IMG/VR virus record: IMGVR_UViG_3300045738_002385
Span: 1-60,239 of that record
Direction: 5' to 3' (one strand)
Source: a virus
Taxonomy: Duplodnaviria > Caudoviricetes
Length of the DNA stretch: 60,239 nt
Under the pieces are notes generated by a model, which worked only from the letters and a program-made list of their open reading frames with translations, searched no databases and had not been told where the DNA came from. Within the stretch, counting starts at the first letter, position 1, and each line of letters starts with the position of its first letter. The position numbers were made by a program, and so were the translations under genes. Shown piece after piece: positions 6,157 to 45,678 of this stretch.

Positions 6157-6160
6157 AAAT

Positions 6161-6856
6161 ATGCAAAAGAAAAAAAGCCCCAAAAAGCCGAGCTTCGAAG
6201 AGAGCATAGACAGCATAAACATAGAGATAATCAAGAGAAGAGGTAAATGGAATTTAACCATATTAGCTTGGATGGATTTTGAGGACGTTGCCCAAATACT
6301 AAGGATTCATATCTATAAAAAATGGCATCTTTATGATCATTCTAAACCTCTTGCTCCTTGGATAAATAGAATAATATCAAATCAAATAAAAAATTTAATA
6401 AGGAATAATTATGGAAATTATTGCAGACCATGTTTGAAGTGCGCAGCCGCAGAGGGGGTAGAGCTTTGTTCCATCTACGGGAAACAAGACTCGAGCTGCC
6501 CCCTTTATTCAAACTGGGAAAAAACTAAAAAAAGCGCACATGACGCAAAGCTGCCGCTATCTCTAGAAGACCATGCACAAGAGGTATTCAATCAGCCCTC
6601 AGACTCTCTAGACCTAGAAAAAGCTGGGGAAAAATTGCATGCCGAAATGAAAAACCACTTAAGACCCATAGAGTGGACGGTGTACAAACACCTTTACGTA
6701 TTAAATAAAGACGAACAAGAGCTAGCAAAAGTAATGGGATATAAAACTACAGAAAAAAATAGGGCCCCGGGATACAAACAAATAAAGAATCTTAAAAAGT
6801 CGATAATAAAAAAAGTAAAAAGAGTACTAGATAAAGGTGAAATAGATTTATTTTAA
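6161..6856 (+). CDS. Phage RNA polymerase sigma factor (sigma70 family) with a Cys-rich insert
   Basis: Region 2-like DFEDVAQ...YD..KPLAPWINRIISNQIKNLIR; region 4-like helix-turn-helix at the C-terminus; CRPCLKC...C...C insert. Confidence 0.8.
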   Translation: MQKKKSPKKPSFEESIDSINIEIIKRRGKWNLTILAWMDFEDVAQILRIHIYKKWHLYDHSKPLAPWINRIISNQIKNLIRNNYGNYCRPCLKCAAAEGVELCSIYGKQDSSCPLYSNWEKTKKSAHDAKLPLSLEDHAQEVFNQPSDSLDLEKAGEKLHAEMKNHLRPIEWTVYKHLYVLNKDEQELAKVMGYKTTEKNRAPGYKQIKNLKKSIIKKVKRVLDKGEIDLF

Positions 6857-31200: not shown

Positions 31201-32306
31201 GATTTGTAACAAACGTATACACCCTAGAAACGAATGATCAGGGTGGGCCAGAATATGATAAAAAATACATACATGACACATGCAGCACCAAACCCATAGA
31301 GGAAATCGAGGCGGTAATAGGTGATACAAATTATATAAATTATAATGTTGACTGTGAAGCGAGCGGAATAGTTGTACCCGGAAAGGGGGCAGGGCCAGAG
31401 AGCACAAGGGGGGACTGCCTAGAATTTAAATACAGCAGATTTAATAGAGGCTATTTAAAATACTCTATGCCCACGCAACCGTCTGACGCTCTAGAAACTA
31501 TAGTCACGGAAAGTGACTTTTGCGAATGTCCAGATATATATGGATACGGAGGAGACGGAGAAGACTGCGAGGACAAGCCCGTGACAAGAGATGACTTCAC
31601 TTGGTATAAAACAGAAGCAGAGATCAACATTAAGGGGGAAACGATTAAGCTAACAAGTCAAAAAGAAAAAACATGCATAGCATCCGACAGGTCTGCTCTA
31701 GAAAATTACCCAGATGATGATTCCTGCAAGGCTGTCTGCGGTGTTAGCGCGAAGAAAAAGGTATTAACCTATGATGTATATATTCCGATTTCCTTAACGG
31801 ACAAAAACGGAGACCCCGTTCCGGAGATGAGGGAAGAAAAGGGGCCGTTCTTTTATTATCTCATAGATGGAGACTACGGAGAAACAGGCTATTATTTTGA
31901 TGGGGGAGACAATAACCCAATGGAGGTCGAGGCTCCGGAAAAAATTGAATTCTACGCAGGAGAGTGTGTGGCATTTACTAAGACAACAAAATTATATACA
32001 TATGACCCTCAGGCCCTAGAAGACGGCGGGGAATATCCAGAAGTCACGACAACAACAGAGACGCATTACTTAAAAATACCAAAAGCACTAAATGCATATG
32101 ACATTAGGTTAACCGTTACCCAAGACCATTTGGACAAGGACCTAGTCTGTTGCTCACCCATAGGGTCAAACGTAAGCAGGACATGGCCATCAGAGGAAAT
32201 CCTAACGGCCCTAGGGCCATCTGGGGAAATAATAGGCGAAGCTCCAAGTTTCGTTTCGGAGACTTTGGTCGACAATACCACACCGTGTAGCGGGGATTGC
32301 CCATAA
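22218..32306 (+). CDS. Giant (3362 aa) mucin-like Pro/Thr/Ser-repeat protein with LamG and Cys-rich modules, probably a virion surface protein
   Basis: Long TPSN/TPTN repeat blocks; two LamG-like domains ([20 protein letters not shown]); many Cys; GTGTAA at 22186. Confidence 0.8.
23556..25350 (+). repeat. Coding repeat block 1 (12-nt TPSN-type units interleaved with Cys modules)
   Basis: AATACGCCATCG-type degenerate tandem repeats; boundaries approximate. Confidence 0.85.
28105..29400 (+). repeat. Coding repeat block 2 (TPSN/TPSK units with higher-order repeats)
   Basis: Repeated [24 protein letters not shown] units; boundaries approximate. Confidence 0.85.
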
Positions 32307-33195: not shown

Positions 33196-33777
33196 ATGGC
33201 TAACCGTTTCCATTTTAAAGATACGGGAACCCGAAAACCTTGGTCAACCGTATCAATAAGCTCCGCTGGTAGTATTTTGCACCCTCTTAAGGACGGGCCT
33301 TCCGTAAGTGATTGCGTCACAATTTCGGCAGCAAATGGAAAATACGCATACCTCGGCACACACAACGGTAAAAAAACATTTATCCATATTGATACCAGCA
33401 ATTATTATATGTGGTATAATGGGTCTTCTAGGTGGTATATTAGTACATCCATAGGTAGTACTCCGGGGTCCGACTGGATAGGCTCGGCCACTACGAGCGC
33501 TTCATCCCCTTGGGATGTATCATGGAGCCCCACGGTTGTAGAGGAGGGGGCCGACAAGGATAAAGCTCATTATGTCATAACAGACATATCCGCTCAAGCA
33601 CAAACAGACTTAACTTTGGATAATGGGGAGGGCGGTTCAAAAATTCTCGTGTATATGCCGGCAGGATCAACACATTTTAAGGCTCCTATAGCCGTACCGG
33701 CAATTTCTGGTGTAAGTAGCAGTGCGGCATCTGTAATGATTAATTATTATATACAGGACAACAACAGATCATTATAA
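33196..33777 (+). CDS. Small virion/decoration-like protein (paralog B, with an inserted domain)
   Basis: Paralog of 32876-33190 with an extra internal Trp/Tyr-rich segment of about 90 aa. Confidence 0.7.
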   Translation: MANRFHFKDTGTRKPWSTVSISSAGSILHPLKDGPSVSDCVTISAANGKYAYLGTHNGKKTFIHIDTSNYYMWYNGSSRWYISTSIGSTPGSDWIGSATTSASSPWDVSWSPTVVEEGADKDKAHYVITDISAQAQTDLTLDNGEGGSKILVYMPAGSTHFKAPIAVPAISGVSSSAASVMINYYIQDNNRSL

Positions 33778-35270
33778 TGAAAGATTTTAAATATACAACT
33801 ATTTTTAGTAATTTAACAATCAGACCGCTAGTTGCAGAGGAGAAGGACAAGTACCTTGCTATAGCAAGCTTGATGGACGTAAGTCGGTTCGTCCCCGATT
33901 TAGACACGGATAAAAATATAGATCTTCTCCCCATCGCTTTTAACGCTTTTGTTGCTAATAGGATAAATAGGAATGGCGATGTAATTGATTCGTCAACCGC
34001 GATTGAAATATATAAAAATTTTGTAAACAAGCCTATAAATATAGAACATAATCGTGAGCGCGTCGTAGGGACGATCCTTGCTTCAAGCTTTACTGAATTT
34101 GGGACAGATCAACCGCTAGAGGAAGAGCAAATTAAAGACATGAAAGGCCCATTTAATGTCACCTTGGGCGGAGTAGTATGGAAAATAGTCAATAATGACC
34201 TAGCGGATATGATAGAGAACTCAAATGATCCCACGAGCAGGGACTACCAGAGGATATCCGCAAGCTGGGAGCTTGGATTTTCTGACTTTGAATTAGCAAT
34301 AGTTGAAAGAGGAGAGAAAAACATAGAAAATGCTGAAATTATATCAAATGAACAGCAAATAGAGTCCCTAAAAGAATATTTAAAAAGCTTTGGTGGCTCA
34401 GGAAAGCTGGAAGATGGAAGAAGCGTTTACCGTAAAGTCGTTAACGATATTGTCCCTCTCGGCATAGGCCTTACCGAATCGCCCGCAGCTGATGTGAAGG
34501 GCGTGGCGGTAAAAGGAGAAGAGCAATCAGAAAACGAAGAAAACAATGGAAAAAACATTTCACAAAGTGTAATAGTTAATGTAAATAAACTTGCAGAAAA
34601 TAGTACTATCATGAAAATTACAAGAATTCAAGACATAACGGATGATTCGCTGAAGACTCTTTCGGCTTCCGCTGTCGCAGACTTTATCGAAGAAGAACTT
34701 AAAAGAGCTTCCGAAGACTATTCTGCAGAGAAGGTCAAATACGATGAGCAACTCAAAGACGCGGACGACAAGCACGAAACTCTCTCCAAGGATCATGAGG
34801 AACTCAACGACAAACACAATACGCTTACGAAAGACATGCAGTCTCTTAAAGAGTCTCTGGACGAAATAGAAGTAGAAAACTCCAAGAGAGAAGCCCAAGA
34901 GGTCTTCAATCAAAGAATGGCTTCCATGGACGAAGAGTACGAACTTAGTGACGAAGATCGTAAGGTTATTGCCTCCGACCTAGAGAGTATGGAGGAAGAG
35001 AATTTCAAAACTTATTGGAACAAGATGATTATTCTTTTATCTAATAAGAACAAGAAAACAATAGAAGCCGCTAAAGCCAAATCCAAGACGGAAGAGGCCG
35101 AAGAGACTACCGAAGCAACCGAAACTAATGATACGGTTGTGGAAGTCGCCTTGGAAGATGCGGAAAAACAAGAAGAGATCTTGCCTGCCTCTACGGAAGC
35201 AAGCGCGCCAACTGTTTACGATAAGTATCGTGCCGCTTTTGGAATTGATCAATTCGACATCACAAATTAA
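33777..35270 (+). CDS. Prohead protease fused to a scaffold region
   Basis: NRNGDVID, KPINIEHNR and SASWELGF protease-like motifs; acidic coiled-coil C-terminal half; lies upstream of the capsid genes. Confidence 0.75.
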   Translation: MKDFKYTTIFSNLTIRPLVAEEKDKYLAIASLMDVSRFVPDLDTDKNIDLLPIAFNAFVANRINRNGDVIDSSTAIEIYKNFVNKPINIEHNRERVVGTILASSFTEFGTDQPLEEEQIKDMKGPFNVTLGGVVWKIVNNDLADMIENSNDPTSRDYQRISASWELGFSDFELAIVERGEKNIENAEIISNEQQIESLKEYLKSFGGSGKLEDGRSVYRKVVNDIVPLGIGLTESPAADVKGVAVKGEEQSENEENNGKNISQSVIVNVNKLAENSTIMKITRIQDITDDSLKTLSASAVADFIEEELKRASEDYSAEKVKYDEQLKDADDKHETLSKDHEELNDKHNTLTKDMQSLKESLDEIEVENSKREAQEVFNQRMASMDEEYELSDEDRKVIASDLESMEEENFKTYWNKMIILLSNKNKKTIEAAKAKSKTEEAEETTEATETNDTVVEVALEDAEKQEEILPASTEASAPTVYDKYRAAFGIDQFDITN

Positions 35271-35291
35271 TTTAAACAAGGAAAAAAAATT

Positions 35292-35855
35292 ATGCCAACA
35301 CTATTACCATTTAGAGATTATAGCGAACACAACGTTGTCAACCTCTTCGCAGTAAGTGGAAGCCTTCCCGTTAGTAAGGGAACGGTAGTACGTATCCTTG
35401 GAAATGGATGGAAAAATACAGATGAGCCTATCGAAATGATGGGGTCTCAGCACCTTGGTGCTTCGTATGCAAACACCGTTTCCGAAAGATATGGAGTTCC
35501 ATGTAAGATCGCGATCGCCCATACGGGCGCAGGCGGCTCTAAGCATGTTCCACTTGGCTTGACGCTTTACGGCGTTCAAGAGCTTGACGAAAACGGCGAG
35601 AAGCTACTTTACAACCCACGCAAGGCCGCCGAAATGGGCGTTGCCATTAGTGGACAAGCAGTACCTGTACTGACTAAAGGAATCGTTCTTTACAGCGGTG
35701 CCGTCCTAACATCTGATTCGCCAGTGGCGAACGTGGACGTGTACACTGCAAATAACGGTGAACTATCAACGACTTCAACCAATGCCACTAAGGTAGGCAA
35801 AACATTGGGATCGCTTGACGACAATAATCACGTACTGTTAAAGATCGAACTTTAA
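35292..35855 (+). CDS. Capsid decoration/stabilising protein
   Basis: Lies between the scaffold and major capsid genes; GQAVPVLTKG and C-terminal VGKTLG...LLKIEL; high-expression-type codon usage. Confidence 0.7.
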   Translation: MPTLLPFRDYSEHNVVNLFAVSGSLPVSKGTVVRILGNGWKNTDEPIEMMGSQHLGASYANTVSERYGVPCKIAIAHTGAGGSKHVPLGLTLYGVQELDENGEKLLYNPRKAAEMGVAISGQAVPVLTKGIVLYSGAVLTSDSPVANVDVYTANNGELSTTSTNATKVGKTLGSLDDNNHVLLKIEL

Positions 35856-35880
35856 CATTTAACTATAGGAACATTTTATT

Positions 35881-37026
35881 ATGAAGCTTAAACTAAAAAA
35901 CACTCCAGAGCAGGTTGAACTTATCAAAGCTATGGGGTCTAGAAATTCTACTGAAGCCCGAGAGGCTCAGGAAGCTTTCGCTGCTTTTATCGGACCTGTT
36001 GTTCAGCAAGTTATTCAACAAGCTGGCACCGCAAGTCTTATCTTTACGGATAATGAATACGATGAAGATGACAGCCCAAGCTATCCTTTGGATCTTTACT
36101 ACAGTGAGAATGCCGATCATATTACAGTTTGGTCACAGAACATCGCCGGTGGCTTGCCCACTAGTCATGTCGAAGGTATGGCAGAGATGAAAATCGCCAC
36201 CTACAGACTTGATACCGCTGTGACTTTCTTAAAGAAATATGCTCGTCGCGCTCGCTTGGACGTACTCGGTAAAACCATTGAGAGAATGGGACAAGAGGTT
36301 CTCCTCAAGCAGGAGAGAAACGCTTGGGCCGTTGTTCTTAAGGCTCTCGCCGAGGCACAAACCAATGGCGTCGTGCACACTATCGGTGGCATGGACGGAG
36401 ATCAATTCTCACCCTCTGACATTAACGCTCTTATGACTTTGGTCAAGAGAATTAATGGATCTTGGGCGGGAAACGGTAACGATGGAACTCCTTCTGATTT
36501 CAGCGCCAAAGGTCTAACCGACCTGTTCTTGAGCCCTGAAATGATGGAAGACGTTCGCGGGTTTGCTTACAATCCCGTAAACGATCTTGATGTGGGATCC
36601 AAAACAACTGGCCCAGTGACTCTTCCCGATAACGTTCGTAACGATATTTGGAGAAGCGCTGGAATGTCATCCCTGTATGGGGTCGTTCTTCACGAGATGC
36701 TTGAGTTTGGTGCTGGCAAAAAATACAATACTCTTTATAAGAGCTTTGTTGATGGCAGTGGTCTTACTCACAATGCACCTGCCGGGTCTGGCGGAACCAG
36801 AGACGGTACTTTGAACCTTTCGAACAACCAAGTCCTTGTTGGCTTGGATCTGAGTCGTGACTCCTTCATTCGCCCCGTCGCTCGTCATGCTGACAGCGGT
36901 TCGACGTTTGTGGCTGTTCCGGATGATCAGTTCGTAAGCCGTGCAGAAAGAATCGGATTCTACGGGTCTCTCGAAGAGGGTCGCGTATGTCTAGACTCCC
37001 GCGCAATTGTAGGAATACACATTTAA
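35881..37026 (+). CDS. Major capsid protein (HK97 fold)
   Basis: 381 aa; position after protease/scaffold and decoration genes; C-terminal IGFYGSLEEGRVCLDSRAIVG; strong terminator follows. Confidence 0.85.
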   Translation: MKLKLKNTPEQVELIKAMGSRNSTEAREAQEAFAAFIGPVVQQVIQQAGTASLIFTDNEYDEDDSPSYPLDLYYSENADHITVWSQNIAGGLPTSHVEGMAEMKIATYRLDTAVTFLKKYARRARLDVLGKTIERMGQEVLLKQERNAWAVVLKALAEAQTNGVVHTIGGMDGDQFSPSDINALMTLVKRINGSWAGNGNDGTPSDFSAKGLTDLFLSPEMMEDVRGFAYNPVNDLDVGSKTTGPVTLPDNVRNDIWRSAGMSSLYGVVLHEMLEFGAGKKYNTLYKSFVDGSGLTHNAPAGSGGTRDGTLNLSNNQVLVGLDLSRDSFIRPVARHADSGSTFVAVPDDQFVSRAERIGFYGSLEEGRVCLDSRAIVGIHI

Positions 37027-37048
37027 ATTATTTAATAATAATTAACAC

Positions 37049-37076
37049 AGGCCGAGATTTTCTCGGCCTTTTTTTT
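37049..37076 (+). terminator. Intrinsic terminator after the major capsid gene
   Basis: AGGCCGAGA-TTT-TCTCGGCCT followed by a T tract. Confidence 0.9.
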
Positions 37077-37136
37077 GTCTACGCATCTCAAAATAGGTGT
37101 AACGTACAACGTAAACAGCACAGGAAAGAATATACT

Positions 37137-38498
37137 ATGGCGCACCCTTATAGAAGAAAATTTTCAGAATACGAAGCACTAAAAGAAGGTGCTCTCGACA
37201 TCGGAGCAGATAACGGCAGACCAATAAGAATCAACCCCGACGGAAGTATTGAGGCGACAAGATTTATTGATACTACAGACAACCTTGAACTTTACGTAGA
37301 CAAGGGCGAAGTCAAAGCGAGATTCGGGATAGACTACTCCACAGAAGCAGAAGTCTCACTTAGTGGCGGGGGCACACTGTTCCGGTCTATGAGGGGAATG
37401 GTTTATTTCCTTAGGAATTCATTTTTTGTTTATGGATTTAGACTTTCTAGGTGGAGCACCACGATGCAAAGACGATTTGCCCACCTTTCAAGACCCATGA
37501 GAACCTCTGTCGCGAACGTTATGGCCAACGGAGGTAATTTCGTTTTTAGCTTTGAAAAAGATTCAAAAAATTGGGGAAGGGTCACTCAACACAGCTCGTT
37601 CTGCAAACCCTACAAAAACGCTATTTATTTAAGAGCTACTGATGCCATAAGAGAATGCAATGATATTATTGTCATCAAAACTGGACGCTTTAGGAGTGGT
37701 CCCGGCGGAGTTAGGAGCGGAATTTCAAATGAAACAATCGTTTGGGTTTCCCCGCACGAAGAGCTCGCATTTACAGGATTTACTCAAACCTCTGGGCAAC
37801 ACCATCACAGCGGTTCCGCTGGCCTTTCTCGATTTAGTGGAGCGGCTGGTCCGGGGTCTTGGTTCACAGGACAAGACGACGCAAGAAGCTTGCCTTGGAC
37901 TGGCTATAGCGGATGGATAGACACCACGGTGAGATCCAAGGTAAGCTACCTGTCTTCTAAGAACTACATTATTCCTAGTGGAACAGTACTGAAGGGTGGA
38001 GTGACTGTAGAAAAATACAATGCCTCTGGAACTATTTCTTCTGAAACAGCCCCGGCTAATTTGGTTGATACTGATTTTTATAACACTTACGCGACAACCG
38101 GTTGGGGAGCAGACACGCATACCGGGCAAAGCAAAGTGAGAATGTGGACAGGCAACGCTTGGAACGGAGTCATTCCACAAGATACACCATACAAGATTGA
38201 AGTATGGGCAGCCAATGGGGAATTGGTAGGCTTCCATGGGCAAATCGAAGCTGTTCCAACCGGAATGAGAGAGTTCGGAGGAGATACAGACGATTTTGAA
38301 ATTACGATTTCTGGGTCTGGTGAAGGTGTGTCCTTCTCGAGTCCTGCAGAAGCACAAAACATAGCAGGGGCCTTAGCAATGGTTGACTGCTATAGAAAAC
38401 TAGATAACTTATTGATACTGGCTGGCCATAGAACTAGCGGAGCTAATATGACTAAGTTCCACAAATTTATGACCAAAGTAATGACAGGAGTAATATAA
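37137..38498 (+). CDS. Hypothetical protein, probably virion
   Basis: Start moved to the ATG at 37137, after the terminator, GTGTAA (37097) and an AGGA site; rich in SG/TG. Confidence 0.7.
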   Translation: MAHPYRRKFSEYEALKEGALDIGADNGRPIRINPDGSIEATRFIDTTDNLELYVDKGEVKARFGIDYSTEAEVSLSGGGTLFRSMRGMVYFLRNSFFVYGFRLSRWSTTMQRRFAHLSRPMRTSVANVMANGGNFVFSFEKDSKNWGRVTQHSSFCKPYKNAIYLRATDAIRECNDIIVIKTGRFRSGPGGVRSGISNETIVWVSPHEELAFTGFTQTSGQHHHSGSAGLSRFSGAAGPGSWFTGQDDARSLPWTGYSGWIDTTVRSKVSYLSSKNYIIPSGTVLKGGVTVEKYNASGTISSETAPANLVDTDFYNTYATTGWGADTHTGQSKVRMWTGNAWNGVIPQDTPYKIEVWAANGELVGFHGQIEAVPTGMREFGGDTDDFEITISGSGEGVSFSSPAEAQNIAGALAMVDCYRKLDNLLILAGHRTSGANMTKFHKFMTKVMTGVI

Positions 38499-38499
38499 A

Positions 38500-39027
38500 A
38501 TGTTAACACCTTATCCAGCTAAAAAATTCTATTTTTTCGAATTTGAAGGAAGACTTGTTTTTAATGAGAATTCTCAAAATTTAATTGGCGTTGATGAAGA
38601 TCCTAGATTTAGGATAGAGCCAAACAAATTAAAGCATATTTTGAACTACTCTTTTGATCCAATTAGTTTAAACTTTGGATACACTAGGGACGAAGTTCTT
38701 GGACTCTTTTTGAAAAATTGTGATCTCACTAAAGCCGAAGCAGAAACAGAGTTTTTCATCATGATGAACAGGCCTCCGTATTCATACTTTAATGGACATA
38801 GCTATGCAGAGTATGCTTCTCAAACTTTCGACGCCTCTTATCAGTCGGAGTTGAGACAGCAATGGGAAACCATGGGGGTCAACGCCGTAGATGGGGAAGA
38901 TTTTCAAGGCAACCCCATAGTATATAAGAAAAAGAACTTTACTTTTTATTACGCAAGGGTCCAGCCCTTATTGAGGAATATGGCCGAGAATCTTGAAATG
39001 AGCGAATATGTAGTAATAGCACCATAG
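38500..39027 (+). CDS. Hypothetical protein
   Basis: 175-aa tightly packed ORF. Confidence 0.7.
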   Translation: MLTPYPAKKFYFFEFEGRLVFNENSQNLIGVDEDPRFRIEPNKLKHILNYSFDPISLNFGYTRDEVLGLFLKNCDLTKAEAETEFFIMMNRPPYSYFNGHSYAEYASQTFDASYQSELRQQWETMGVNAVDGEDFQGNPIVYKKKNFTFYYARVQPLLRNMAENLEMSEYVVIAP

Positions 39028-39036
39028 GATTTAATC

Positions 39037-40059
39037 ATGCCAGCTAATCTAAGAATTACAAAAGATAACTTCCGAATCAACTCGCAACTAGGTAAAAGAA
39101 ACCTGCCTAAGCTCAGTCTCGAGGCAATTTCGGTTAATGATAGAGCAAGGGGATCTTCTGATTACCTCAAGAATTCCTGTGTATCGGCGGATTATAACCA
39201 AGGCGTGGGATATAACTTAGCCAATGATAATATAGTTATTGCTTCAGGGCTAGGAACAAATGGATGCTTCGTTTCTAGTAACACTAGGTTAAATTTTAGG
39301 TTTACAAATCAAGTAGATGCCATAGAGTCTCTATTAATAAATAGCGATTTATATAAAGCTGGATTCATAGAATTAACCAGAAAAAATTGGATTGACGCTA
39401 TCGATGTTCTAGTGCTAGGCGCAGACACCAGCTTCTATTTTGGGGAGGGAACATGTTTGGTTACCGATAAGATTTATATACATAAGGGGTTGCTTGCTAA
39501 TTTTGGTTCTGTTTTTACTAGCCACGCCAATGTAACCAACTGGGTTATGGGGTTCGCCATGAGGTTCAACAGGGCGAGAAGAGCAGTGTGTGGGCTAAAG
39601 TGTGGGGAAATTAAATTTGTACCGCCTTCGGACACAAACCCAACAACCACCTATACGATAGTGGTTAAACCACATGAATGGCACGTGAACGGAAAGAAAC
39701 CAGAAACAAGATATAATAAAATTTATCCTGTGTCTATTGACGACCCAATAAAACTCAACTACTTGACCACAGAATACCAGATGCAACTTACCAACGATTA
39801 CCTAAACGGGCAATCCTTTGAATTCAGCATCGCTTCTGGAGAAGGAAAAAGCTTTGGCCTAGTGGCAAATGAAGCAGGATTTAATATGTGTGGATGTGAA
39901 TCGCGGCAGGATGTCGATAATTTGAATTCTCGCATGACCTACAGCGTCAATGGTTCAAAATACGACTCGTCAACAAGCACAACTACAGCCCTTAGTGAGT
40001 CCACAGAAAAAATTCCATGTATTAATTTTCCAGAGATTCACCAGATAAATATCTCTTAA
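39037..40059 (+). CDS. Hypothetical protein
   Basis: 340-aa ORF with an AGGA Shine-Dalgarno site. Confidence 0.7.
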   Translation: MPANLRITKDNFRINSQLGKRNLPKLSLEAISVNDRARGSSDYLKNSCVSADYNQGVGYNLANDNIVIASGLGTNGCFVSSNTRLNFRFTNQVDAIESLLINSDLYKAGFIELTRKNWIDAIDVLVLGADTSFYFGEGTCLVTDKIYIHKGLLANFGSVFTSHANVTNWVMGFAMRFNRARRAVCGLKCGEIKFVPPSDTNPTTTYTIVVKPHEWHVNGKKPETRYNKIYPVSIDDPIKLNYLTTEYQMQLTNDYLNGQSFEFSIASGEGKSFGLVANEAGFNMCGCESRQDVDNLNSRMTYSVNGSKYDSSTSTTTALSESTEKIPCINFPEIHQINIS

Positions 40060-40126
40060 TAAGTTGCAGTTACCTATTGTTTTTTTCGTGTAATAATTCC
40101 TGAATACACTAATTTAGGAAAATATT

Positions 40127-41752
40127 ATGTCAGGAATAAACAGCAAAATGGCAAACATCTGGGGCAACTGTATGGGGCCCTTCGAAACATATAGCCGAGG
40201 AGGCAAAGAAGGAGCCGGAACAGGAAGCCCACTAACCTACGAAGCGCAAGCGCGCGCAGGCATCCCCGCACATTTAGCCGGCCAGCCAAAAGAGCGGATT
40301 TTCGTCGTGGGTTTACCGGGTGGCCCCAGTGGAGGAATCTTTCCAATCAACAGTCTCGAGGAGAGCGCAAAAGAGGCGACTTTTGAACTGCCCACTATCC
40401 TTCCTCACCCCATGCCCAAAATGGGCCAAAACCTATGGGCCGGAGGTGGCGGATGTGTCCGGACCGGAACAGACGAGAGCGGCAGGGTTCGAAATGTACC
40501 CAAAAGCTCGACAACGCCAGCCAATCTACCAAGCCAAACGACCCAGAGGAATCAAAATCAATTAATAGTATGCTGCAGGGCGCCCTGTAACCTGAACCCA
40601 AATGGAAACGCCGGCCCATTACCCGCGAACAACAAGCGCGGATCTGCATCAAACTCAAAAAGTGACCCAAACAAAGGGTTCAGCAATGGCCGAGGCCACC
40701 CCGGCCAGATGCAAGATCCAGTGTCAGGGAAAATAACATTATTTGGCGGAAAAATTGGAATAGACCCCGGACTGAATCGTGAAGAAGTACAAGAGTTGGA
40801 AAGTCTGAAACTTTACAGCTCCATGGGTGACGAAGGGCAACGCGGAAAATTAGCAGCTGATTTTTCGGAGGCGAAATGGCAGTTATTCGGCGGGGCCAAA
40901 CAATTTAAGCAAAAATCTTCTGATATGTTGGAGATGGATGCCTACGCAGGCATTAAGAACTTCATAGAACAGAACGTTGACGAAGACAAAAGAAATGACG
41001 TTAAGATTTTAAATGCAGCCGGTGACTCCCCCGGCATGCGTTTTGCGATGGACAACATGCTGAGTGACAACAGTCCAGATGCGCGCGGCTTCTCGGTAGC
41101 TGCCGACACTATGGCCGGTGGCGCCCCAACCCCAACATGCGAGAATGCATGCGACTCCGTGTCTGTGAGCATGGATGGCGCACTAAGCGACTCCTTTAGT
41201 GCTCTTCCGGATGCAGTTCATGGAGGAGTGGTAAGCAAAAAGGTAAGTGGTTTATCTGCCAAAACCAAGGCGGATACGCTACCGGATTATACCAACCAGT
41301 CTGTGGCTGGACAAATGAGATTGTTGGATATAGAAAAGAGCGCAGACGACCAAACAAGCAATGATGGCGGTGGATACTTTCTCTTGTATGCCGATAATCC
41401 CCAGCAGGCCGGAGGTTACGGTGACCCGGAGATCAATGTCAAATATATTAATCCAGAAGGGGTAGAGAGCTCAGAAGTTCCAAGTTTTGAGATTGAAATG
41501 ATAAGTGACCCAAGTGCCGAGTGTTTTACCCAGACGATGAGCCCCAACAAAGATGTGGTGAGCGCAATGTACACTAACGCTAACCAAGACGGTCAGAACG
41601 TTGTGCAGATGAATGTAGAAACCACTTATTATGACGGAACCGTTGAATCAGAAGTGGTGACTGTTGCCCTTGACGGCTACGACCAAGTCCGCGCTTACGG
41701 TGCGAGCAACCTGCCGAAAATTGACCTAGCTGAACATATTGGTCTGGCCTAA
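40127..41752 (+). CDS. Hypothetical protein
   Basis: 541 aa, Gly/Pro-rich N-terminal half and acidic C-terminal half; GTGTAA at 40088. Confidence 0.7.
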   Translation: MSGINSKMANIWGNCMGPFETYSRGGKEGAGTGSPLTYEAQARAGIPAHLAGQPKERIFVVGLPGGPSGGIFPINSLEESAKEATFELPTILPHPMPKMGQNLWAGGGGCVRTGTDESGRVRNVPKSSTTPANLPSQTTQRNQNQLIVCCRAPCNLNPNGNAGPLPANNKRGSASNSKSDPNKGFSNGRGHPGQMQDPVSGKITLFGGKIGIDPGLNREEVQELESLKLYSSMGDEGQRGKLAADFSEAKWQLFGGAKQFKQKSSDMLEMDAYAGIKNFIEQNVDEDKRNDVKILNAAGDSPGMRFAMDNMLSDNSPDARGFSVAADTMAGGAPTPTCENACDSVSVSMDGALSDSFSALPDAVHGGVVSKKVSGLSAKTKADTLPDYTNQSVAGQMRLLDIEKSADDQTSNDGGGYFLLYADNPQQAGGYGDPEINVKYINPEGVESSEVPSFEIEMISDPSAECFTQTMSPNKDVVSAMYTNANQDGQNVVQMNVETTYYDGTVESEVVTVALDGYDQVRAYGASNLPKIDLAEHIGLA

Positions 41753-41766
41753 CCACTTTAAATATT

Positions 41767-43458
41767 ATGGGGTTAAAATGGGACACATTTCTTTTCTTCA
41801 TCGGGTGCAAATCTGAGACGCCCCTTGATCCAAATAGCCCGATAGCGCTCCGAAGGGCCGAGGCAATAGAAGAGCAGCATCAGATCGATCAGGAAAAGTT
41901 GAAGCAAGCGGAAAGGGAAGCAAAAGCGATGAGGCTAAGGAACGCCAAGTCTGCGGAGCGAGCTGCCCGCGCGGCCAGAAACGCCGCCGCGCGCGGCAAA
42001 AAGAAAAAGTCGCCAAACGCAAATAAACCAAAGAACGCCGAACAACTTCCTCAACGTCCGGTAAACCCGCCAAAAAGAAAGGGAAACCCCAACGCCGGTA
42101 AGCCACCAGACCCAAATCCAAAAGTATGCCCTCCCGCCGGAGCTCAGCCATTGAGTGGTCAAAGGTGCATGATCATTCCTCGCACCAATTTGCCGTTGCC
42201 CCCCGAAATAATGCCTGTTCCAATTGAACCTGCTGGCGGCGCGCCTCCAGCGCCGCAAATGTTTATAGACCCAAACACTGGGCTACCAGCGGGTCCTCAG
42301 GGTGTTAAAACCACTTATTATCCATTATCTACGATGCAGACGGCCCGGCAAAATGGGTTTATGGGAACCTCTGGTTTTACTCAAGGTTTAAAGAGCAAAA
42401 GACATGCCGTTGATCCTTATGGAGGAGCGGGGATTCCCAATGCAGTGATGAACTCAGAGAGTAGAAAGTATCTTAACTTCGTCAACAAAAGAAAATTCCC
42501 CGACCCAATAGGAGTGAGAAGTGCATTAAGACCATTAACCGCATCTCCAGAAAATCCTAACATTGGTTCACCATGGCCTAATATGCATCCAATGCTAATG
42601 CCATATTTTTCAACTTTTTCGGGCCTCCAAAATAATGGCCACCTGAAGGCTCAGTCTCAGTTTAAAAACGGGCAGTCAATGTTTTGGAATTTTATTTTAA
42701 ATTCCAGTGGCACTACGCAGGGAATAACCGTGGAGCAAAAAAATAGATTTAATCACCTTGTAACTGCATACGCGAATAATATTGGTGGACGCGCAGTCGT
42801 CGGAAACGGCCCCTTAACCGAATACCAAAAAAAACTTCTGGCAGTGAGCCTTATAGAGGCAAACCAACACATTTTTCTGCCACTCATTATTCACGGTAAG
42901 ACCTCTGTTTCGTGGCCAAACAAGGGTCAGAACAGATACCAAAATATGAATACGCCCTACGGCGCGAACTATGGAAGTATCGGAGAAAACGCAGCGGGAA
43001 TTCCTCACCCAGCCACCGGAAAGCCGGGATGGGTAGTCCCTTGGGACAGTGATGGCCTCGAGAAGTACGGTATTACCAATGCGCAGGTTTCCCTAATGAA
43101 CGGCGGAAGATACAATCAAAACCTGCCACCATGGAATGACGGAAATCAAATTTTGAATCGTCGAAATCCCGACGGTAGCCATATTGGCGTAATAAGGGTC
43201 GATACTCAGCGATTTGGGGGAGAAGAAGGCTCCAGATTTATAAACCACAAAGGTCTTATCGGTGAAAAAAATGGAGTTTCACCGAGCGGCGTGCCATTTA
43301 GTTTTAACACCGCCAGAATTTGGAGATATAACCCAACCGGTAACGGTGGCAACTCCGTCGTTCACGGACGCAACGGCAAGCCCCCAAAACACTGGGTAGA
43401 CCTTAATAACTATGTGGACCCCGCCCCCAACCCCTTGCGCCTTCCCGGTCTCAATTAA
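41767..43458 (+). CDS. Hypothetical basic Pro/Asn/Gly-rich protein
   Basis: 563-aa ORF with no recognised family. Confidence 0.7.
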   Translation: MGLKWDTFLFFIGCKSETPLDPNSPIALRRAEAIEEQHQIDQEKLKQAEREAKAMRLRNAKSAERAARAARNAAARGKKKKSPNANKPKNAEQLPQRPVNPPKRKGNPNAGKPPDPNPKVCPPAGAQPLSGQRCMIIPRTNLPLPPEIMPVPIEPAGGAPPAPQMFIDPNTGLPAGPQGVKTTYYPLSTMQTARQNGFMGTSGFTQGLKSKRHAVDPYGGAGIPNAVMNSESRKYLNFVNKRKFPDPIGVRSALRPLTASPENPNIGSPWPNMHPMLMPYFSTFSGLQNNGHLKAQSQFKNGQSMFWNFILNSSGTTQGITVEQKNRFNHLVTAYANNIGGRAVVGNGPLTEYQKKLLAVSLIEANQHIFLPLIIHGKTSVSWPNKGQNRYQNMNTPYGANYGSIGENAAGIPHPATGKPGWVVPWDSDGLEKYGITNAQVSLMNGGRYNQNLPPWNDGNQILNRRNPDGSHIGVIRVDTQRFGGEEGSRFINHKGLIGEKNGVSPSGVPFSFNTARIWRYNPTGNGGNSVVHGRNGKPPKHWVDLNNYVDPAPNPLRLPGLN

Positions 43459-43506
43459 TTTTTTAAACAGAAAGGCTCAAAAAGTATTTCCCAAGTAGAC
43501 GTAAGT

Positions 43507-43512
43507 GTGTAA
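43507..43512 (+). promoter_or_regulatory. GTGTAA element heading a non-coding transcript
   Basis: Same motif as before the late genes, but here followed by the ribozyme rather than an ORF. Confidence 0.6.
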
Positions 43513-43559
43513 TTTGGGATAGGATAAAGAGATTAATTCTCTTTTAAAAGTTGGCCGTA

Positions 43560-43789
43560 TCGGGTGAATTCGGTGAAACTCTTTGAGGTTGTTTTTTACG
43601 ACAGACCACGAAGACAATACCGAGCCAAGCCAGAAAGGGAAATAAGTTTTCTGGAAGGTGTAGAGACTAGGCAGTGAGTCCCAACAATAATCTGCCCACG
43701 AGCGCCCGACACAGTACGTGAAGATATAGTCCGAACTGCATGGTGACATGTAGAGGTCAGATAATTAAAAAACTGGCGATAACAAATTG
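43560..43789 (+). ncRNA. Group I intron ribozyme core (ORF-less, IA-like with P7.1)
   Basis: P3 TCGGGTG (43560-66)/CGCCCGA (43703-09); P4 TTCGGT/ACCGAG; P6a CCAGAAAG/TTTTCTGG; P7 GACTA (43665-69)/TAGTC (43727-31); S element AAGATATAGTCC; P7.1 GGCAG/CTGCC; P9 CTGCATG-GTGA-CATGTAG (GNRA loop); probable omega-G at 43789. Confidence 0.9.
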
Positions 43790-43880
43790 GACCATTGGAT
43801 AGGCGGGCAAACGTTATGGTGTGGTTCGACCCTCGTTCCCACTCGCTTACCCTAATCCTTTGTCGGCTGAGTCTAATTAG

Positions 43881-43913
43881 AAATAGAAGCAGATAATGCT
43901 TCTATTTTTTTTT
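43881..43913 (+). terminator. Intrinsic terminator closing the ribozyme transcript
   Basis: AAATAGAAGCA-GATAA-TGCTTCTATTT followed by a T tract. Confidence 0.85.
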
Positions 43914-43952
43914 GCTTTCGTGTAAGGCCAAACAAGGAAAAAGGCAAATATT

Positions 43953-44336
43953 ATGGCTGCAAAGAAAAAAAACATTAAAAAAACGTCAAAAGCTTCAAGA
44001 AAAAAAAGCTTAAAATCCCTTTCTCAAACCCACGGAAAAGAAGAGGGTGTAGAGCCAACGACGCTAGATCAGATATGGGGAGACTCTGGCATGGGGAAAT
44101 ATAAAACAATCGAAAAAGCCGAATACGAAGAAGGCTTAGATAACATGACGAAAAGCGACCTGCAGACTCACGCAACTAAAGTGGGGCTAATTCCCGTAGA
44201 CAATAGAGAAATCCTCAAGGGAAGACTCATGAGGGAATTTACAAAGCATGTAAATGGTTACCGAAAGCCAGCATCCAGAGCTAAGACAGAAAAGGTTTCC
44301 AGCGCAGTAAAAAAGATCCTCAGCGAAGGAAAATAG
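43953..44336 (+). CDS. Hypothetical basic protein
   Basis: 127 aa with Lys-rich ends; GTGTAA at 43920. Confidence 0.75.
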   Translation: MAAKKKNIKKTSKASRKKSLKSLSQTHGKEEGVEPTTLDQIWGDSGMGKYKTIEKAEYEEGLDNMTKSDLQTHATKVGLIPVDNREILKGRLMREFTKHVNGYRKPASRAKTEKVSSAVKKILSEGK

Positions 44337-44395
44337 ACAATCATCTAATCCTCTTAATTAATTAATTGTGTAATAACAATTGGGATATTGTTGTT

Positions 44396-44734
44396 ATGGC
44401 TACTAATTATAATTTAAATATTACAAGAGGATCAAATTTTTCTGTTAGATTAATTGCGAAAGACCAGCTTGGGTCAGTCATAGACCTCACTCCCTACCAA
44501 GTCAAAGGGATTATAAAGCATAGATATTCAGATAGCGATGCCTTATTGGACCTTAAGCCCTCTGGCGTAGAGGGCTATTTAACAAGTGGATTTATCGATG
44601 TAACTTTGTCGGGAGCGCAAACTACAGGTATGCCGATTTCTCAGGGGGTCTATGATATAGAAATTTCCTCTGGACATTACGTAGACAAACTTATTTATGG
44701 ATATGTCAATTTTTACCCAGAAGTTACTAACTAA
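44396..44734 (+). CDS. Small virion protein, BppU N-terminal-like
   Basis: YNLNITRGSNF...IDLT.Y...GVYDIEI...G.V.F.PEVT pattern; GTGTAA at 44368. Confidence 0.65.
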   Translation: MATNYNLNITRGSNFSVRLIAKDQLGSVIDLTPYQVKGIIKHRYSDSDALLDLKPSGVEGYLTSGFIDVTLSGAQTTGMPISQGVYDIEISSGHYVDKLIYGYVNFYPEVTN

Positions 44735-45678
44735 TGGCCGGAGTAGATGTTATTGTTGCCGGCCAAGTCTCTGCTTCGGCCGTTGTAGCTGGGGCAAAAA
44801 CTGCTAGCGTTATTGTCCCGGGTACCGTTCTGTACCCAGCTATAACCTCTGGGCAGGTCTTTGCTAATGTAATTGTTCCCGGGTCCTTTTCTGTTGATAC
44901 TAACCTTGCGGGCATTGGAGGAACAGAGTTAATGCAGGGCGCGGCGGGGGTAGACGGGGCAGACGGAGTAGATGGATCAATTAGCGGTGCTGTTGGATTA
45001 GATGGAGCCATTCAATACAAGAGCGGTAACCAGCTTCAGGGGGCAAAAGCATTTTTCTATGAAAGAGCAAATGACATACTCAGGTTTAGCGGCCAACAAT
45101 TGATAATAGAAGATGGGACCTTCAAGGTAAGTGGGAAAAACAGAGAGGTAGATGACTTTTTTAGTATAAGGCACAACGAAGACCAAATCCTGCGGGTAGA
45201 TACCGAAAACCAAAGAATACTTTTTGCCCCGGGGGCATCCTCACAATATTACATAGGAATAGGCGTTTCAGAACCAAAAGAGCGTCTGCACGTAGACGGC
45301 AACCTAATGGTTGAGGGTGCTGGATATTTTGAAGAACTGTATATTACTGGAAGCGAGGGTATTGACAAGATAGCTACCGAGAATCACGTTTCTGGGGCAA
45401 GCGGATATTTAGATAATAAAACAGATTTCATTTTTCTAAAAACAGAAGTTGAGACAGGGGCTCCATTTTATGGAGCAAAACAGCCCATTCCTTGGGACGT
45501 GAACTATACCCCTAGGGTCGTAAATACTATGGTTTCCCCGTCTGGGTTGAACTTCTTCCTTTCCTCCACGGAGGGTATAACTCAAACTGGTTGTTGGGTT
45601 CACTTTTCGTCAGATGTGGATTCTCGGGGGTTTTTCATAGAGAGTTTCGTTTCTTCGGAACATTGGCAAGAAAATTGA
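44734..45678 (+). CDS. Fibre-like virion protein with a short collagen-like stretch
   Basis: GAAGVDGADGVDG; YIGIGVSEPKERLHVDGN fibre motif. Confidence 0.65.
   Translation: MAGVDVIVAGQVSASAVVAGAKTASVIVPGTVLYPAITSGQVFANVIVPGSFSVDTNLAGIGGTELMQGAAGVDGADGVDGSISGAVGLDGAIQYKSGNQLQGAKAFFYERANDILRFSGQQLIIEDGTFKVSGKNREVDDFFSIRHNEDQILRVDTENQRILFAPGASSQYYIGIGVSEPKERLHVDGNLMVEGAGYFEELYITGSEGIDKIATENHVSGASGYLDNKTDFIFLKTEVETGAPFYGAKQPIPWDVNYTPRVVNTMVSPSGLNFFLSSTEGITQTGCWVHFSSDVDSRGFFIESFVSSEHWQEN

What the first reader, a model, noticed from the sequence alone, without database searches (positions are those of the whole stretch)
43507..43913. Stand-alone group I ribozyme gene with its own promoter and terminator and no host gene
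Seen: a complete group I core (P3, P4, P6, P7, P7.1, P8, P9, exact AAGATATAGTCC S element) lies between the stop at 43458 and the start at 43953. It is bracketed by the phage GTGTAA motif (43507) and a strong terminator (43881-43913). It carries no homing endonuclease ORF, there is no ATG in the 5' flank, and the flanks do not rebuild a tRNA cloverleaf. Only about 45 nt precede P3. Known: phage group I introns normally interrupt CDSs or tRNAs. Inference: this is a dedicated late non-coding transcript of about 390 nt, maintained for its RNA function rather than as a parasite of a gene. The intact pairings argue against a decayed remnant.
Basis: partly seen in the sequence, partly recalled or inferred. 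Interest (0 to 1): 0.9.

Follow-up and report, generated by a model that had tools for sequence, protein, structure and literature searches.

The report
Circularly permuted group I ribozyme gene
This marine phage carries a real, expressed group I ribozyme that interrupts no gene and has its parts in a rearranged order, so it should cut its own transcript at its far end and may release a tiny RNA circle, an arrangement previously known only from engineered constructs.

Summary
The group I core is real: Rfam RF00028 gives 70.3 bits at 43484-43753. The window is an orphan marine phage contig, and no gene or tRNA is interrupted.

The element belongs to a family. I found 37 distinct cores and aligned 27 full-length ones. 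In 27 of 31 full-length members it lies just upstream of one conserved lysine-rich gene.

The P1 hairpin in the Rfam alignment is not conserved. The conserved RNA starts at a guide strand, UUGGCC (43551-56), 5 nt before P3. That strand pairs with GGCU|GA (43865-70), downstream of P9, P9.1, an invariant omega-G (43789) and a 79-nt covarying hairpin. The U.G wobble at the predicted cut is kept in 27/27. This is a permuted intron-exon topology.

A -10-like box lies directly upstream in 30/35 members (GTGTAAT in the window).

RNA-library contigs from four studies cover only 43561-43868. Three of them end at 43865-43868, the predicted cut, and not at the terminator. All four still span the omega-G junction, so circle formation is not shown.

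It missed the permutation, the cleavage, and the fact that 19/27 relatives use the element as a gene leader.

The parts
43507..43513 (+). Promoter-like motif GTGTAAT (-10-like, TGTAAT). The predicted transcription start is about 43519-43521.
   Evidence: GTGTAA occurs 21 times on the + strand and 2 times on the - strand. By my reading, 13 copies lie 45 nt or less upstream of starts of ORFs of at least 100 aa. Relatives have TATAAT (17/35 perfect, 13/35 with one mismatch) within 30 nt upstream of the guide strand, against 0 perfect and 9 with one mismatch in a control region. Function as a promoter is inferred.
43526..43544 (+). 5' leader hairpin (P2-like), between the promoter motif and the guide strand
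   Evidence: Present in the MFE and centroid folds. AAGAG/CUCUU is kept in L122. It is absent from most other relatives, where the -10 box lies about 8 nt before the guide strand.
43551..43556 (+). Internal guide strand UUGGCC (3'-type strand of P1), 5 nt before P3
   Evidence: It has the same 5-nt spacing to P3 as the guide strand GCCACU of the conventional relative L086, whose splice sites are confirmed by a continuous ORF. It pairs with 43865-43870; the centroid fold pairs 43553-56 with 43865-68.
43560..43753 (+). Catalytic core: P3 (43560-66/43703-09), P4-P6a (43570-43658), P7 (43665-69/43727-31), P7.1 (43670-96), P8 (43710-20), J8/7 with the S element (43721-32), P9 (43736-53)
   Evidence: Rfam 70.3 bits. 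The J8/7-P9 segment is 94.6-97.1% identical over 35-37 nt to introns of a T4-like phage (anaerobic ribonucleotide reductase gene) and of Yersinia phage phiR1-37.
43756..43777 (+). P9.1 hairpin with the conserved loop AUAAUUAAAAAA
   Evidence: Four of its 5 pairs show changes on both sides (helix 11). The loop is invariant in 27/27.
43778..43789 (+). GAUAACAAAUUG, ending in the predicted omega-G (G43789); 3' splice site between 43789 and 43790
   Evidence: The G is invariant in 27/27 although the 2-5 nt before it vary. The segment is homologous to GAUAACAAUCUG| at the ORF-confirmed 3' splice site of L086. It also resembles the 3' end of the T4-like intron, GAACACAUUG| (my reading of the frame).
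43790..43868 (+). 'Exon': a 79-nt rod-like hairpin that ends in the P1 substrate strand GGCU. This is the predicted circle.
   Evidence: Its length is 75-79 nt in 27/27. All 14 of 14 stem pairs show compensatory changes. Median sequence identity to the window is only 41%. ARAGORN finds no tRNA when the exon is read as a circle.
43865..43870 (+). P1 substrate strand GGCU|GA; the predicted 5' splice (cleavage) site lies after U43868
   Evidence: G43553.U43868 is a wobble pair in 27/27. GGCU is present in 26/27 and was not required by the search pattern. L085 has UUUGCC/GGUAAA, which keeps the wobble. RNA contigs from three studies end at 43865, 43866 and 43868.
43869..43913 (+). 3' tail with an intrinsic terminator (stem 43879-43909, then a T-run); the predicted leaving fragment that would receive the added G
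   Evidence: Terminator scan. Conserved in L122. Not covered by any of the 4 RNA runs.
43920..43925 (+). Second GTGTAA motif, serving the downstream gene
   Evidence: conserved in L122.
43953..44336 (+). Downstream lysine-rich 127-aa gene, the family's constant neighbour
   Evidence: A homologue follows the ribozyme in 27 of 31 full-length members. No Pfam or PHROG family matches it.

Best explanation
The element is one member of a conserved family of naturally circularly permuted group I ribozymes found in marine phage contigs.

Transcription starts at a promoter of its own: GTGTAAT in the window, TATAAT in most relatives. The RNA therefore begins at, or shortly before, the internal guide strand UUGGCC.

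A complete IA2-type core follows (P3-P9 and P9.1), related to the T4 nrdD/sunY intron. After it come an invariant omega-G (G43789), a 79-nt hairpin, and then the P1 substrate strand GGCU|GA. That strand folds back onto the guide strand and places a U.G wobble (U43868.G43553) where a normal intron has its 5' splice site.

Predicted step 1: a free guanosine nucleotide attacks after U43868. This releases the 3' part of the transcript with the G attached. In the window that part is a 45-nt terminator tail. In 19 of 27 relatives it is the mRNA of the neighbouring lysine-rich gene.

Predicted step 2: the new 3'-OH of U43868 attacks after omega-G, guided by a short P10 (G43550-U43552 with G43790-C43792). 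This would close the hairpin into a 79-nt circle whose junction forms a GGCU loop, and it would free the ribozyme.

What is shown: the core, the family, the covariation, the permuted pairing, the promoter-box enrichment, and the presence of RNA. What is hinted: cleavage at U43868. What is only inferred: G addition, circle formation, and any benefit to the phage.
For: - Rfam RF00028, 70.3 bits.
- Family size: 43 loci carry the guide-strand-plus-P3 pattern and give 37 distinct cores. 31 are full length with a substrate strand, and 27 were aligned.
- Covariation: 60 pairs, 98.7% paired, 26 pairs with double changes, 0/500 shuffles as high; slid controls give 35-39% paired.
- P1: the U.G wobble is kept in 27/27, and GGCU, which the search did not require, is present in 26/27. 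The variant L085 has UUUGCC/GGUAAA, which keeps the wobble.
- The guide strand has the same 5-nt spacing to P3 as in the conventional relative L086. Joining L086 at the homologous 5' and 3' sites gives one ORF of 70+278 codons.
- Omega-G is invariant in 27/27.
- P10: 11 cells with changes on both sides against 5.1 +/- 1.6 in shuffles (0/500 as high); G-C and A-U alternate at two of its pairs. P10 is 6 bp in L085 and in L055 (my reading).
- Exon: length 75-79 nt in 27/27, and 14/14 stem pairs are compensated.
- -10 box: 17/35 perfect and 13/35 with one mismatch, modal gap 8 nt, against 0 perfect in the control region. L078 and L094 have an upstream ORF on the opposite strand.
- RNA: four metatranscriptome runs from four studies cover only 43561-43868 and none of 43300-43560 or 43869-44400. 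Three contigs end at 43865, 43866 and 43868. DNA runs hold the whole stretch.
- The centroid fold pairs 43553-56 with 43865-68.
Against: - No reaction was observed.
- All four RNA contigs run through the omega-G junction (43789/43790) and no back-splice joint was reported. Step 2 is therefore not quantitative, or does not occur. Assembled contigs are a poor way to see a 79-nt circle.
- Contig ends at 43865-68 could also arise from nuclease trimming back to the P1 helix, or from assembly-graph branching where strains differ. The window and L122 first differ at 43869.
- The guide strand was fixed by my metagenome search pattern, so P1 shows no covariation within the 27. Only L085 gives a compensatory case.
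- P10 forms 4 bp in only 13 of 27 by my count of the table. Its share of paired cells is not above shuffles (133/500 as high), and its exon nucleotides also pair within the exon stem.
- The exon sequence is poorly conserved (median 41%), which fits a structural arm as well as a functional circle.
- Rfam missed L025 at its gathering score.
Confidence: 0.65

Rival explanations
1. It is a stand-alone or leader ribozyme-like RNA whose 5'/3' closing helix is purely architectural. There is no cleavage at GGCU|GA. The RNA acts as an intact structured non-coding RNA of unknown role.
For: The covariation shows selection for the fold, not for a reaction. The exon evolves like a peripheral arm: its length and stem are kept while its sequence is free. 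RNA contigs run through omega-G. The contig ends at 43865-68 may be trimming or assembly effects.
Against: An invariant U.G wobble sits exactly where a splice site belongs, and it is kept in L085 despite a register change. Omega-G is invariant. The helix sits at the P1 position relative to P3, as in L086. Three of the three RNA contigs that reach this region stop at or before U43868, and none includes the stable terminator hairpin.
Confidence: 0.2
2. It is a conventional ORF-less group I intron lying in untranslated RNA between two genes. It would use the Rfam P1 (43489-43519, 5' splice site after U43496) and a 3' splice site after G43789 or further downstream. It would be a selfish insertion or a relic of one.
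For: The Rfam alignment covers model positions 1-253, including a P1 hairpin. The loop of that hairpin shares ACGUAAGU with the P1 loop of the T4-like nrdD intron.
Against: The would-be splice pair is U43496-A43512, not U.G. The hairpin is absent from the closest relative L122, where the GGG strand is missing, and from L015, L025 and the other members, whose -10 box lies about 8 nt before the guide strand. The promoter motif lies inside this hairpin. I saw no P10 for that guide strand. RNA contigs do not cover 43484-43560.
Confidence: 0.05
3. It is a decaying intron remnant with no function.
For: 18 of 21 syntenic relatives lack the element. L099 carries GGAU in place of GGCU.
Against: 26 pairs have compensatory changes. 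The core is more conserved than the neighbouring protein gene: median 73.5% against 58.7% nucleotide identity. RNA is present in four studies.
Confidence: 0.03

Closest known systems
T4 nrdD (sunY) group I intron and related phage IA2 introns
   Same: The core architecture is the same, including P7.1, no P2 between P1 and P3 in most members, and a remote 3'-terminal segment ending ...UUG|. The J8/7-P7-P9 segment is 94.6-97.1% identical over 35-37 nt. The conventional relatives L086 and L048 share the 17-nt P3-P4 word and have long open frames after their predicted 3' splice site; for L086 the joined ORF was also checked.
   Different: The element interrupts no gene and has no homing-endonuclease ORF. 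Its P1 substrate strand lies after omega-G instead of before the guide strand. Its promoter lies immediately before the guide strand.
Engineered permuted intron-exon (PIE) constructs for making circular RNA
   Same: The order of parts is the same: guide strand, core, omega-G, exon, 5' splice site. The predicted products are the same: an exon circle and two intron pieces. PIE is known to me from the literature; titles and abstracts were seen in the listings.
   Different: This one is natural, encoded by phages, and carries a 75-79-nt hairpin as its 'exon'. The permutation point is the P1 loop itself.
Natural circularly permuted group II introns (Roth et al. 2021, PMC8637638)
   Same: Both are stand-alone permuted self-splicing ribozymes that interrupt no ORF. 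The group II form makes small RNA circles of unknown function (abstract and passages read).
   Different: The ribozyme class and the chemistry differ. Those are bacterial and not tied to one neighbouring gene.
Back-spliced giant ND5-717 group I intron of mushroom-coral mitochondria (Chi et al. 2019, PMC6545197)
   Same: It is a natural group I precursor in permuted order that is resolved by back-splicing. I saw this as cited in a passage of PMC8637638 and in the title and abstract start in the listing.
   Different: There the permutation spans most of a mitochondrial genome and restores a coding mRNA. It is not a compact ribozyme gene.
GIR1 lariat-capping ribozyme
   Same: It is a group I-derived ribozyme without a conventional P1 that sits 5' of an mRNA and creates that mRNA's 5' end. 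I saw this in a passage of PMC8637638; the rest is recalled.
   Different: No match to any other Rfam model, GIR1 included, beyond chance-level hits at E up to 10. Here a normal P7, J8/7 and a U.G-containing P1 are kept, so ordinary guanosine attack is expected rather than branching.
c-di-GMP-controlled group I ribozyme in a Clostridioides difficile 5' leader
   Same: A group I ribozyme in a 5' untranslated leader whose cleavage site choice sets expression of the downstream gene. This is recalled; no call supports it.
   Different: That one is a conventional, non-permuted intron with a riboswitch. No aptamer is evident here.

Membership tests
Group I catalytic intron (Rfam RF00028) | Conserved core P3-P9, including the P7 G-binding helix and J8/7 | tested here: met
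   70.3 bits against a gathering score of 50. P7 and J8/7 are invariant, and the helices covary in 27 sequences.
Group I catalytic intron (Rfam RF00028) | P1 helix with a U.G wobble at the 5' splice site, formed with an internal guide strand next to the core | tested here: met
   Met only in permuted connectivity: UUGGCC (43551-56) pairs with GGCU|GA (43865-70), and the wobble is kept in 27/27. The conventional P1 drawn by Rfam has a U-A pair and is not conserved.
Group I catalytic intron (Rfam RF00028) | Omega-G at the 3' splice site, with P10 to the following nucleotides | tested here: inconclusive
   The G is invariant in 27/27 and homologous to the ORF-confirmed 3' splice site of L086. P10 has 2 bp in about 24/27 and 4 bp in 13/27 by my count, with weak to moderate covariation.
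Group I catalytic intron (Rfam RF00028) | Interrupts a host gene whose exons are ligated into a functional RNA | tested here: not met
   There is no interrupted ORF, tRNA or tmRNA. The upstream stop and downstream start are intact. The family lies between genes in all 31 full-length members.
Group I catalytic intron (Rfam RF00028) | Guanosine-dependent self-splicing activity | not testable with these tools
   The only hint is RNA contig ends at 43865-43868 in three studies.
Permuted intron-exon (PIE) topology | Order of parts: guide strand, core, omega-G, exon, 5' splice site, all in one transcript | tested here: met
   The order is seen in the window and in all 27 aligned members.
Permuted intron-exon (PIE) topology | Produces a covalently closed exon circle | tested here: inconclusive
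   No joint was reported, and all four RNA contigs span the omega-G junction. Contigs cannot exclude a 79-nt circle.
GIR1 lariat-capping ribozyme | GIR1-specific fold | tested here: not met
   An Rfam scan of 43400-44000 at E up to 10 lists only RF00028 plus chance-level hits; GIR1 is not among them.

The most novel reading that the evidence does not exclude
Marine phages encode a natural permuted intron-exon device. A promoter-driven group I ribozyme would do two things. First, it would cut itself off the mRNA of a conserved virion-module gene and leave that mRNA with a ribozyme-added guanosine nucleotide at its 5' end. That would be a protein-free way to make a fresh, possibly triphosphorylated, 5' end downstream of an inserted accessory gene module. 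Second, it would close its 75-79-nt hairpin into a dumbbell-shaped circular RNA. This would be the first compact natural circularly permuted group I ribozyme and the first ribozyme-made circular RNA of a bacteriophage.
Probability: 0.4. Interest if true: 0.92.

Novelty: new variant of a known kind. Interest (0 to 1): 0.86.

Why it matters
Group I ribozymes are textbook selfish introns. Apart from the lariat-capping ribozyme, they are not known as free-standing genes.

A conserved, expressed phage family in permuted order would show that nature arrived at the same permuted intron-exon design that laboratories use to make circular RNA. It would be the group I counterpart of the permuted group II introns described in 2021.

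It also gives a concrete and cheap experiment on whether bacteriophages make ribozyme-derived RNA circles, or use a ribozyme to set the 5' end of an mRNA.

The short natural versions (about 320 nt including the exon, with no P2) could be of practical interest as compact circularisation scaffolds.

Five full-text searches found no report of such an element. The library lacks most subscription-journal papers, so earlier publication cannot be excluded.

Tried and rejected
**tRNA or tmRNA host.** ARAGORN found nothing in the window. It also found nothing in the 20 exons I had parsed at that point, each read three times over as an unrolled circle. The GGUUCGA in the window exon does not form a T-arm by my reading.

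**Hidden protein-coding host.** The upstream ORF stops at 43458. The frame that stays open up to 43496 has no start codon, by my reading.

**Close relatives through the flanking proteins.** The 563-aa upstream protein has no homologue other than itself. The search for related loci with the 563-aa and the 127-aa proteins found nothing.

**Cultured phages.** Only the 35-37-nt J8/7-P9 word matched, in two phages / three records. Nothing matched 41767-45678.

**Scan with a 30-nt P7-P9 word.** It gave 3 unrelated intron loci. Two were Rfam hits. L004 appears to carry an ORF inside the intron, by my reading.

**Scan with the J6/7-P7 15-mer.** Six passed my loop filter and only L228 was a new family member. 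The other matches were not examined one by one.

**Scan with the variant S element.** It added one distant member (L244) and one chance hit (L245).

**Distant clade (L055, L078/L094, L112, L244).** I could not place omega-G and P10 confidently in L078 or L244. These four sequences were left out of alignment A2 because of large insertions. L092 had no S element and no substrate candidate and was dropped. L096, L117, L118, L119 and L124 were too short downstream and were dropped.

**Genome collection.** One hit, in an 18-kb contig of an uncultured Pseudomonadales MAG. It is too little to name a host.

**Protein families.** Pfam and PHROGs gave no family for the neighbouring proteins. The exceptions were phrog_1084 for the 112-aa protein and weak cement and SU10_MCP hits in relatives.

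**Parts of the laid stretch without RNA cover.** 43300-43560 and 43869-44400 had no cover in any of the 4 runs. I use this only as contrast with the covered ribozyme. The 5' end of the RNA could not be read from the contigs.

**Circle.** No joint was reported. This is no verdict either way.

Supplementary files of papers were not asked for.
Full report
**1.

The window is a 60,239-base virus record that CheckV estimates at 34% complete. Public runs that hold it are seawater or marine metagenomes.

Rfam gives one hit in the whole window: RF00028 at 43484-43753 (+), 70.3 bits against a gathering score of 50. ARAGORN finds no tRNA or tmRNA.

The J8/7-P7-P9 segment is 94.6-97.1% identical over 35-37 nt to two phage introns. 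One lies in the anaerobic ribonucleotide reductase gene of a T4-like phage. The other lies between the topoisomerase II / gyrase B gene halves of Yersinia phage phiR1-37. Both score as RF00028.

**2. The element sits at a fixed place in a family of phages.**

The 563-aa upstream protein is an orphan. The 112-aa protein two genes downstream (phrog_1084) has homologues, and a profile of them brought in 38 viral loci.

Twenty-one of these loci carry the pair of genes that follows the ribozyme in the window. Three of the 21 also carry a homologue of the ribozyme at the same place: L015, and L025/L026, which gave identical results in every search. The homologue is 77% identical over about 250 nt.

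The other 18 loci have an MCP-like gene followed within about 100 nt by the lysine-rich gene. None of them gives an Rfam hit.

**3. The conserved RNA begins and ends elsewhere than the Rfam alignment suggests.**

L015 and L025 have nothing resembling the Rfam P1 or a P2. Similarity to the window starts at UUGGCC (43551-56) and ends at UCGGCU(A/G)A (43863-70). In the window's closest relative L122, the strand that would pair with CCCAAGU is missing. The window's would-be splice pair is U-A. I therefore set the Rfam P1 aside. Its loop shares ACGUAAGU with the T4-like intron's P1 loop, and I cannot say whether that is a relic or chance.

**4. More members.**

A 17-nt P3-P4 word found 47 viral loci. 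Most are other group I introns. Six distinct ones belong to this family: the contigs of L015 and L025, plus L069, L055, L078 and L085.

A 22-letter pattern made of the guide strand plus P3-P4 found 35 metagenome loci. Together with the viral ones this gives 43 loci and 37 distinct cores. Thirty-one of them are long enough and have a substrate-strand candidate. I aligned 27 and left out four with large insertions.

**5. Structure.**

On the 27-sequence alignment, 60 pairs in 12 helices are 98.7% paired. Twenty-six pairs show changes on both sides, and 0 of 500 shuffles reach the observed values. Sliding the partners gives 35-39% paired. P6a, P7.1, P8, P9, P9.1 and the exon stem carry most of the compensatory changes. 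P4 and P7 are nearly invariant and so say nothing either way.

**6. The permutation.**

*The long-range P1.* UUGGCC pairs with GGCU(A/G)A, which lies after P9.1 and after a long hairpin. The pair G43553.U43868 is a wobble in 27/27. The guide strand was fixed by my pattern, so its invariance is by construction. The partner strand was not fixed, and it is GGCU in 26/27 (GGAU in L099).

*The one variant.* L085, found with the pattern that does not include the guide strand, has UUUGCC with GGUAAA. The register shifts by one and the U.G wobble is kept (my reading).

*Position relative to the core.* The guide strand lies 5 nt before P3. This is exactly where the guide strand GCCACU lies in the conventional relative L086. 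Joining L086 after its P1 strand AGUGGU and after GAUAACAAUCUG gives one open frame of 70+278 codons.

*Omega-G.* The homologous GAUAACAAAUUG in the window ends at G43789, which is invariant in 27/27 while the 2-5 nt before it vary.

*Order of parts.* The order is therefore guide strand, core, omega-G, a 75-79-nt 'exon', then the 5' splice site. This is the permuted intron-exon order.

*P10.* A short P10 is possible between the nucleotides just 5' of the wobble G and the first exon nucleotides (window GUU/GAC; L015 GAUU/GAUC; L025 AAUU/GAUU; L069 GAUU/GGUC). It forms 4 bp in 13/27 by my count of the table. Eleven cells have changes on both sides, against 5.1 +/- 1.6 in shuffles, but the share of paired cells is no better than in shuffles. 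L085 (AUGUUU/AAGCAU) and L055 (CACCUU/AAGGUG, offset by 2 nt) have 6-bp versions (my reading).

**7. The exon.**

Its length is 75-79 nt in 27/27. Its 14-bp closing stem has compensatory changes at 14/14 pairs. Its sequence is only 41% identical to the window at the median, against 73.5% for the core and 58.7% for the neighbouring gene.

If it is circularised, the junction GGCU would form a 4-nt loop on the C43864-G43790 pair, giving a dumbbell. It is not a permuted tRNA by ARAGORN.

**8. Own promoter.**

Within 30 nt upstream of the guide strand, 17 of 35 members have a perfect TATAAT and 13 have one mismatch, with a modal gap of 8 nt. A control region 70 nt further upstream has 0 perfect matches and 9 with one mismatch. 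In L078 and L094 the upstream ORF is on the other strand.

The window and L122 instead have GTGTAAT about 38 nt upstream, followed by a small hairpin. In the window GTGTAA occurs 21 times on the + strand and twice on the - strand. By my reading, 13 of the 21 lie 45 nt or less before the start of an ORF of at least 100 aa. The standard sigma-70 scan finds no two-hexamer promoter here. The promoter claim therefore rests on comparison, not on a tested start site.

**9. Two layouts.**

In 27 of 31 full-length members the next gene is the lysine-rich protein of 113-146 aa. In 19 of these 27 the ATG lies 2-35 nt after the predicted cut and there is no T-run in between, so the ribozyme is the leader of that mRNA. 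In 8 of the 27 (the window, L105, L106, L111, L113, L122, L125, L126) a T-run terminator and a further promoter-like box intervene. Only this sub-type is stand-alone.

**10. RNA.**

Six RNA-library runs hold part of the stretch, and I laid four of them, from four studies. Their contigs cover 43561-43868 only. There is nothing on 43300-43560 or 43869-44400, which argues against DNA carry-over.

Contigs end at 43865 (X18), 43866 (X16) and 43868 (X17). The fourth (X15) ends at 43817. None runs on into unlike sequence, and none includes the terminator hairpin. DNA runs hold the full stretch.

This is a hint for a 3' end at the predicted cleavage site. Trimming to the helix, or assembly-graph branching at a strain difference, could mimic it: the window and L122 first differ at 43869.

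All four contigs run through 43789/43790, and no joint was listed. The intermediate or uncut junction therefore exists, and the circle is unproven.

**11. Genomic setting.**

In the window, homologues of the portal-like, cement-like and MCP-like genes of the ribozyme-less relatives lie at 33777-37026. Five further ORFs (36987-43458) separate them from the ribozyme.

All 8 ribozyme loci with enough upstream sequence have a homologue of the first of these ORFs after the MCP-like gene, and 1.5-10 kb of variable genes before the ribozyme. The ribozyme thus marks the downstream edge of an accessory module that the 18 ribozyme-less relatives lack.

**12. Comparison and novelty.**

The core is an ordinary phage IA2 ribozyme. 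The connectivity, the own promoter and the absence of a host gene are not ordinary.

Five full-text searches listed permuted group II introns, engineered PIE systems and the coral mitochondrial back-splicing case. They listed no compact natural permuted group I ribozyme. In PMC8637638 I read the passages that mention group I. For the other papers I saw only the search listings.

**13. Verdict.**

The feature is real and is under selection for its fold. In this window it is a separate transcription unit. The best reading is a naturally permuted group I ribozyme that cuts after U43868 (confidence about 0.65) and may circularise its 79-nt hairpin (about 0.4). What it does for the phage is open. 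The link to one gene, and to the edge of an inserted module, points to forming an mRNA end. The stand-alone sub-type points to a role of the RNA itself.

Noticed in passing
window 2846-59117 (21 sites, e.g. 10697, 16042, 22186, 40088, 43920, 45698, 54363): GTGTAA occurs 21 times on the + strand and only 2 times on the - strand. By my reading, about 13 copies lie 12-43 nt upstream of ORF starts, often after an AT-rich stretch or a T-run. It is a candidate phage promoter element.
   Followed up: partly
window 36987-43458: Five ORFs with no Pfam or PHROG family (503, 175, 340, 541 and 563 aa) lie between the MCP-like gene and the ribozyme. The 18 ribozyme-less relatives lack this module, whereas all 8 ribozyme loci with enough upstream sequence carry a homologue of the first ORF plus variable genes.
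   Followed up: partly
L197 about 6040-6660: At least two consecutive group I-like units with similar flanks (repeated ...gctaacggta... and ...aaggtctattattta... segments) lie on one viral contig. This may be a tandem array of stand-alone ribozymes of another type.
   Followed up: no
window 43926-43931: GGCCAA, a perfect complement of the guide strand UUGGCC, lies just after the second GTGTAA and 22 nt before the downstream ATG. L122 has GGCAAA there, so it is probably chance.
   Followed up: partly
window 43489-43519: A hairpin whose loop shares ACGUAAGU with the P1 loop of the T4-like nrdD intron. It has a U-A pair at the would-be splice site and is not conserved in L122. It may be a relic of an unpermuted ancestor, or coincidence.
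   Followed up: partly
L099 about 1555-1562: One family member has GGAU instead of GGCU in the substrate strand, which breaks one P1 pair. It may be an inactive copy or a sequencing error.
   Followed up: no
L025 5260-5560: Rfam at its gathering score misses this clear homologue (nhmmer E 5.8e-41), although it scores L015 at 69.9 bits. Routine Rfam annotation will therefore under-count this family.
   Followed up: no
window 22218-32306: A single ORF of 3,362 aa on the + strand. It was not examined.
   Followed up: no
L246 1889-1910: The only hit of the family pattern among 185,579 species genomes is an 18-kb contig of an uncultured Pseudomonadales MAG. This could be a host hint or a mis-binned phage contig.
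   Followed up: no
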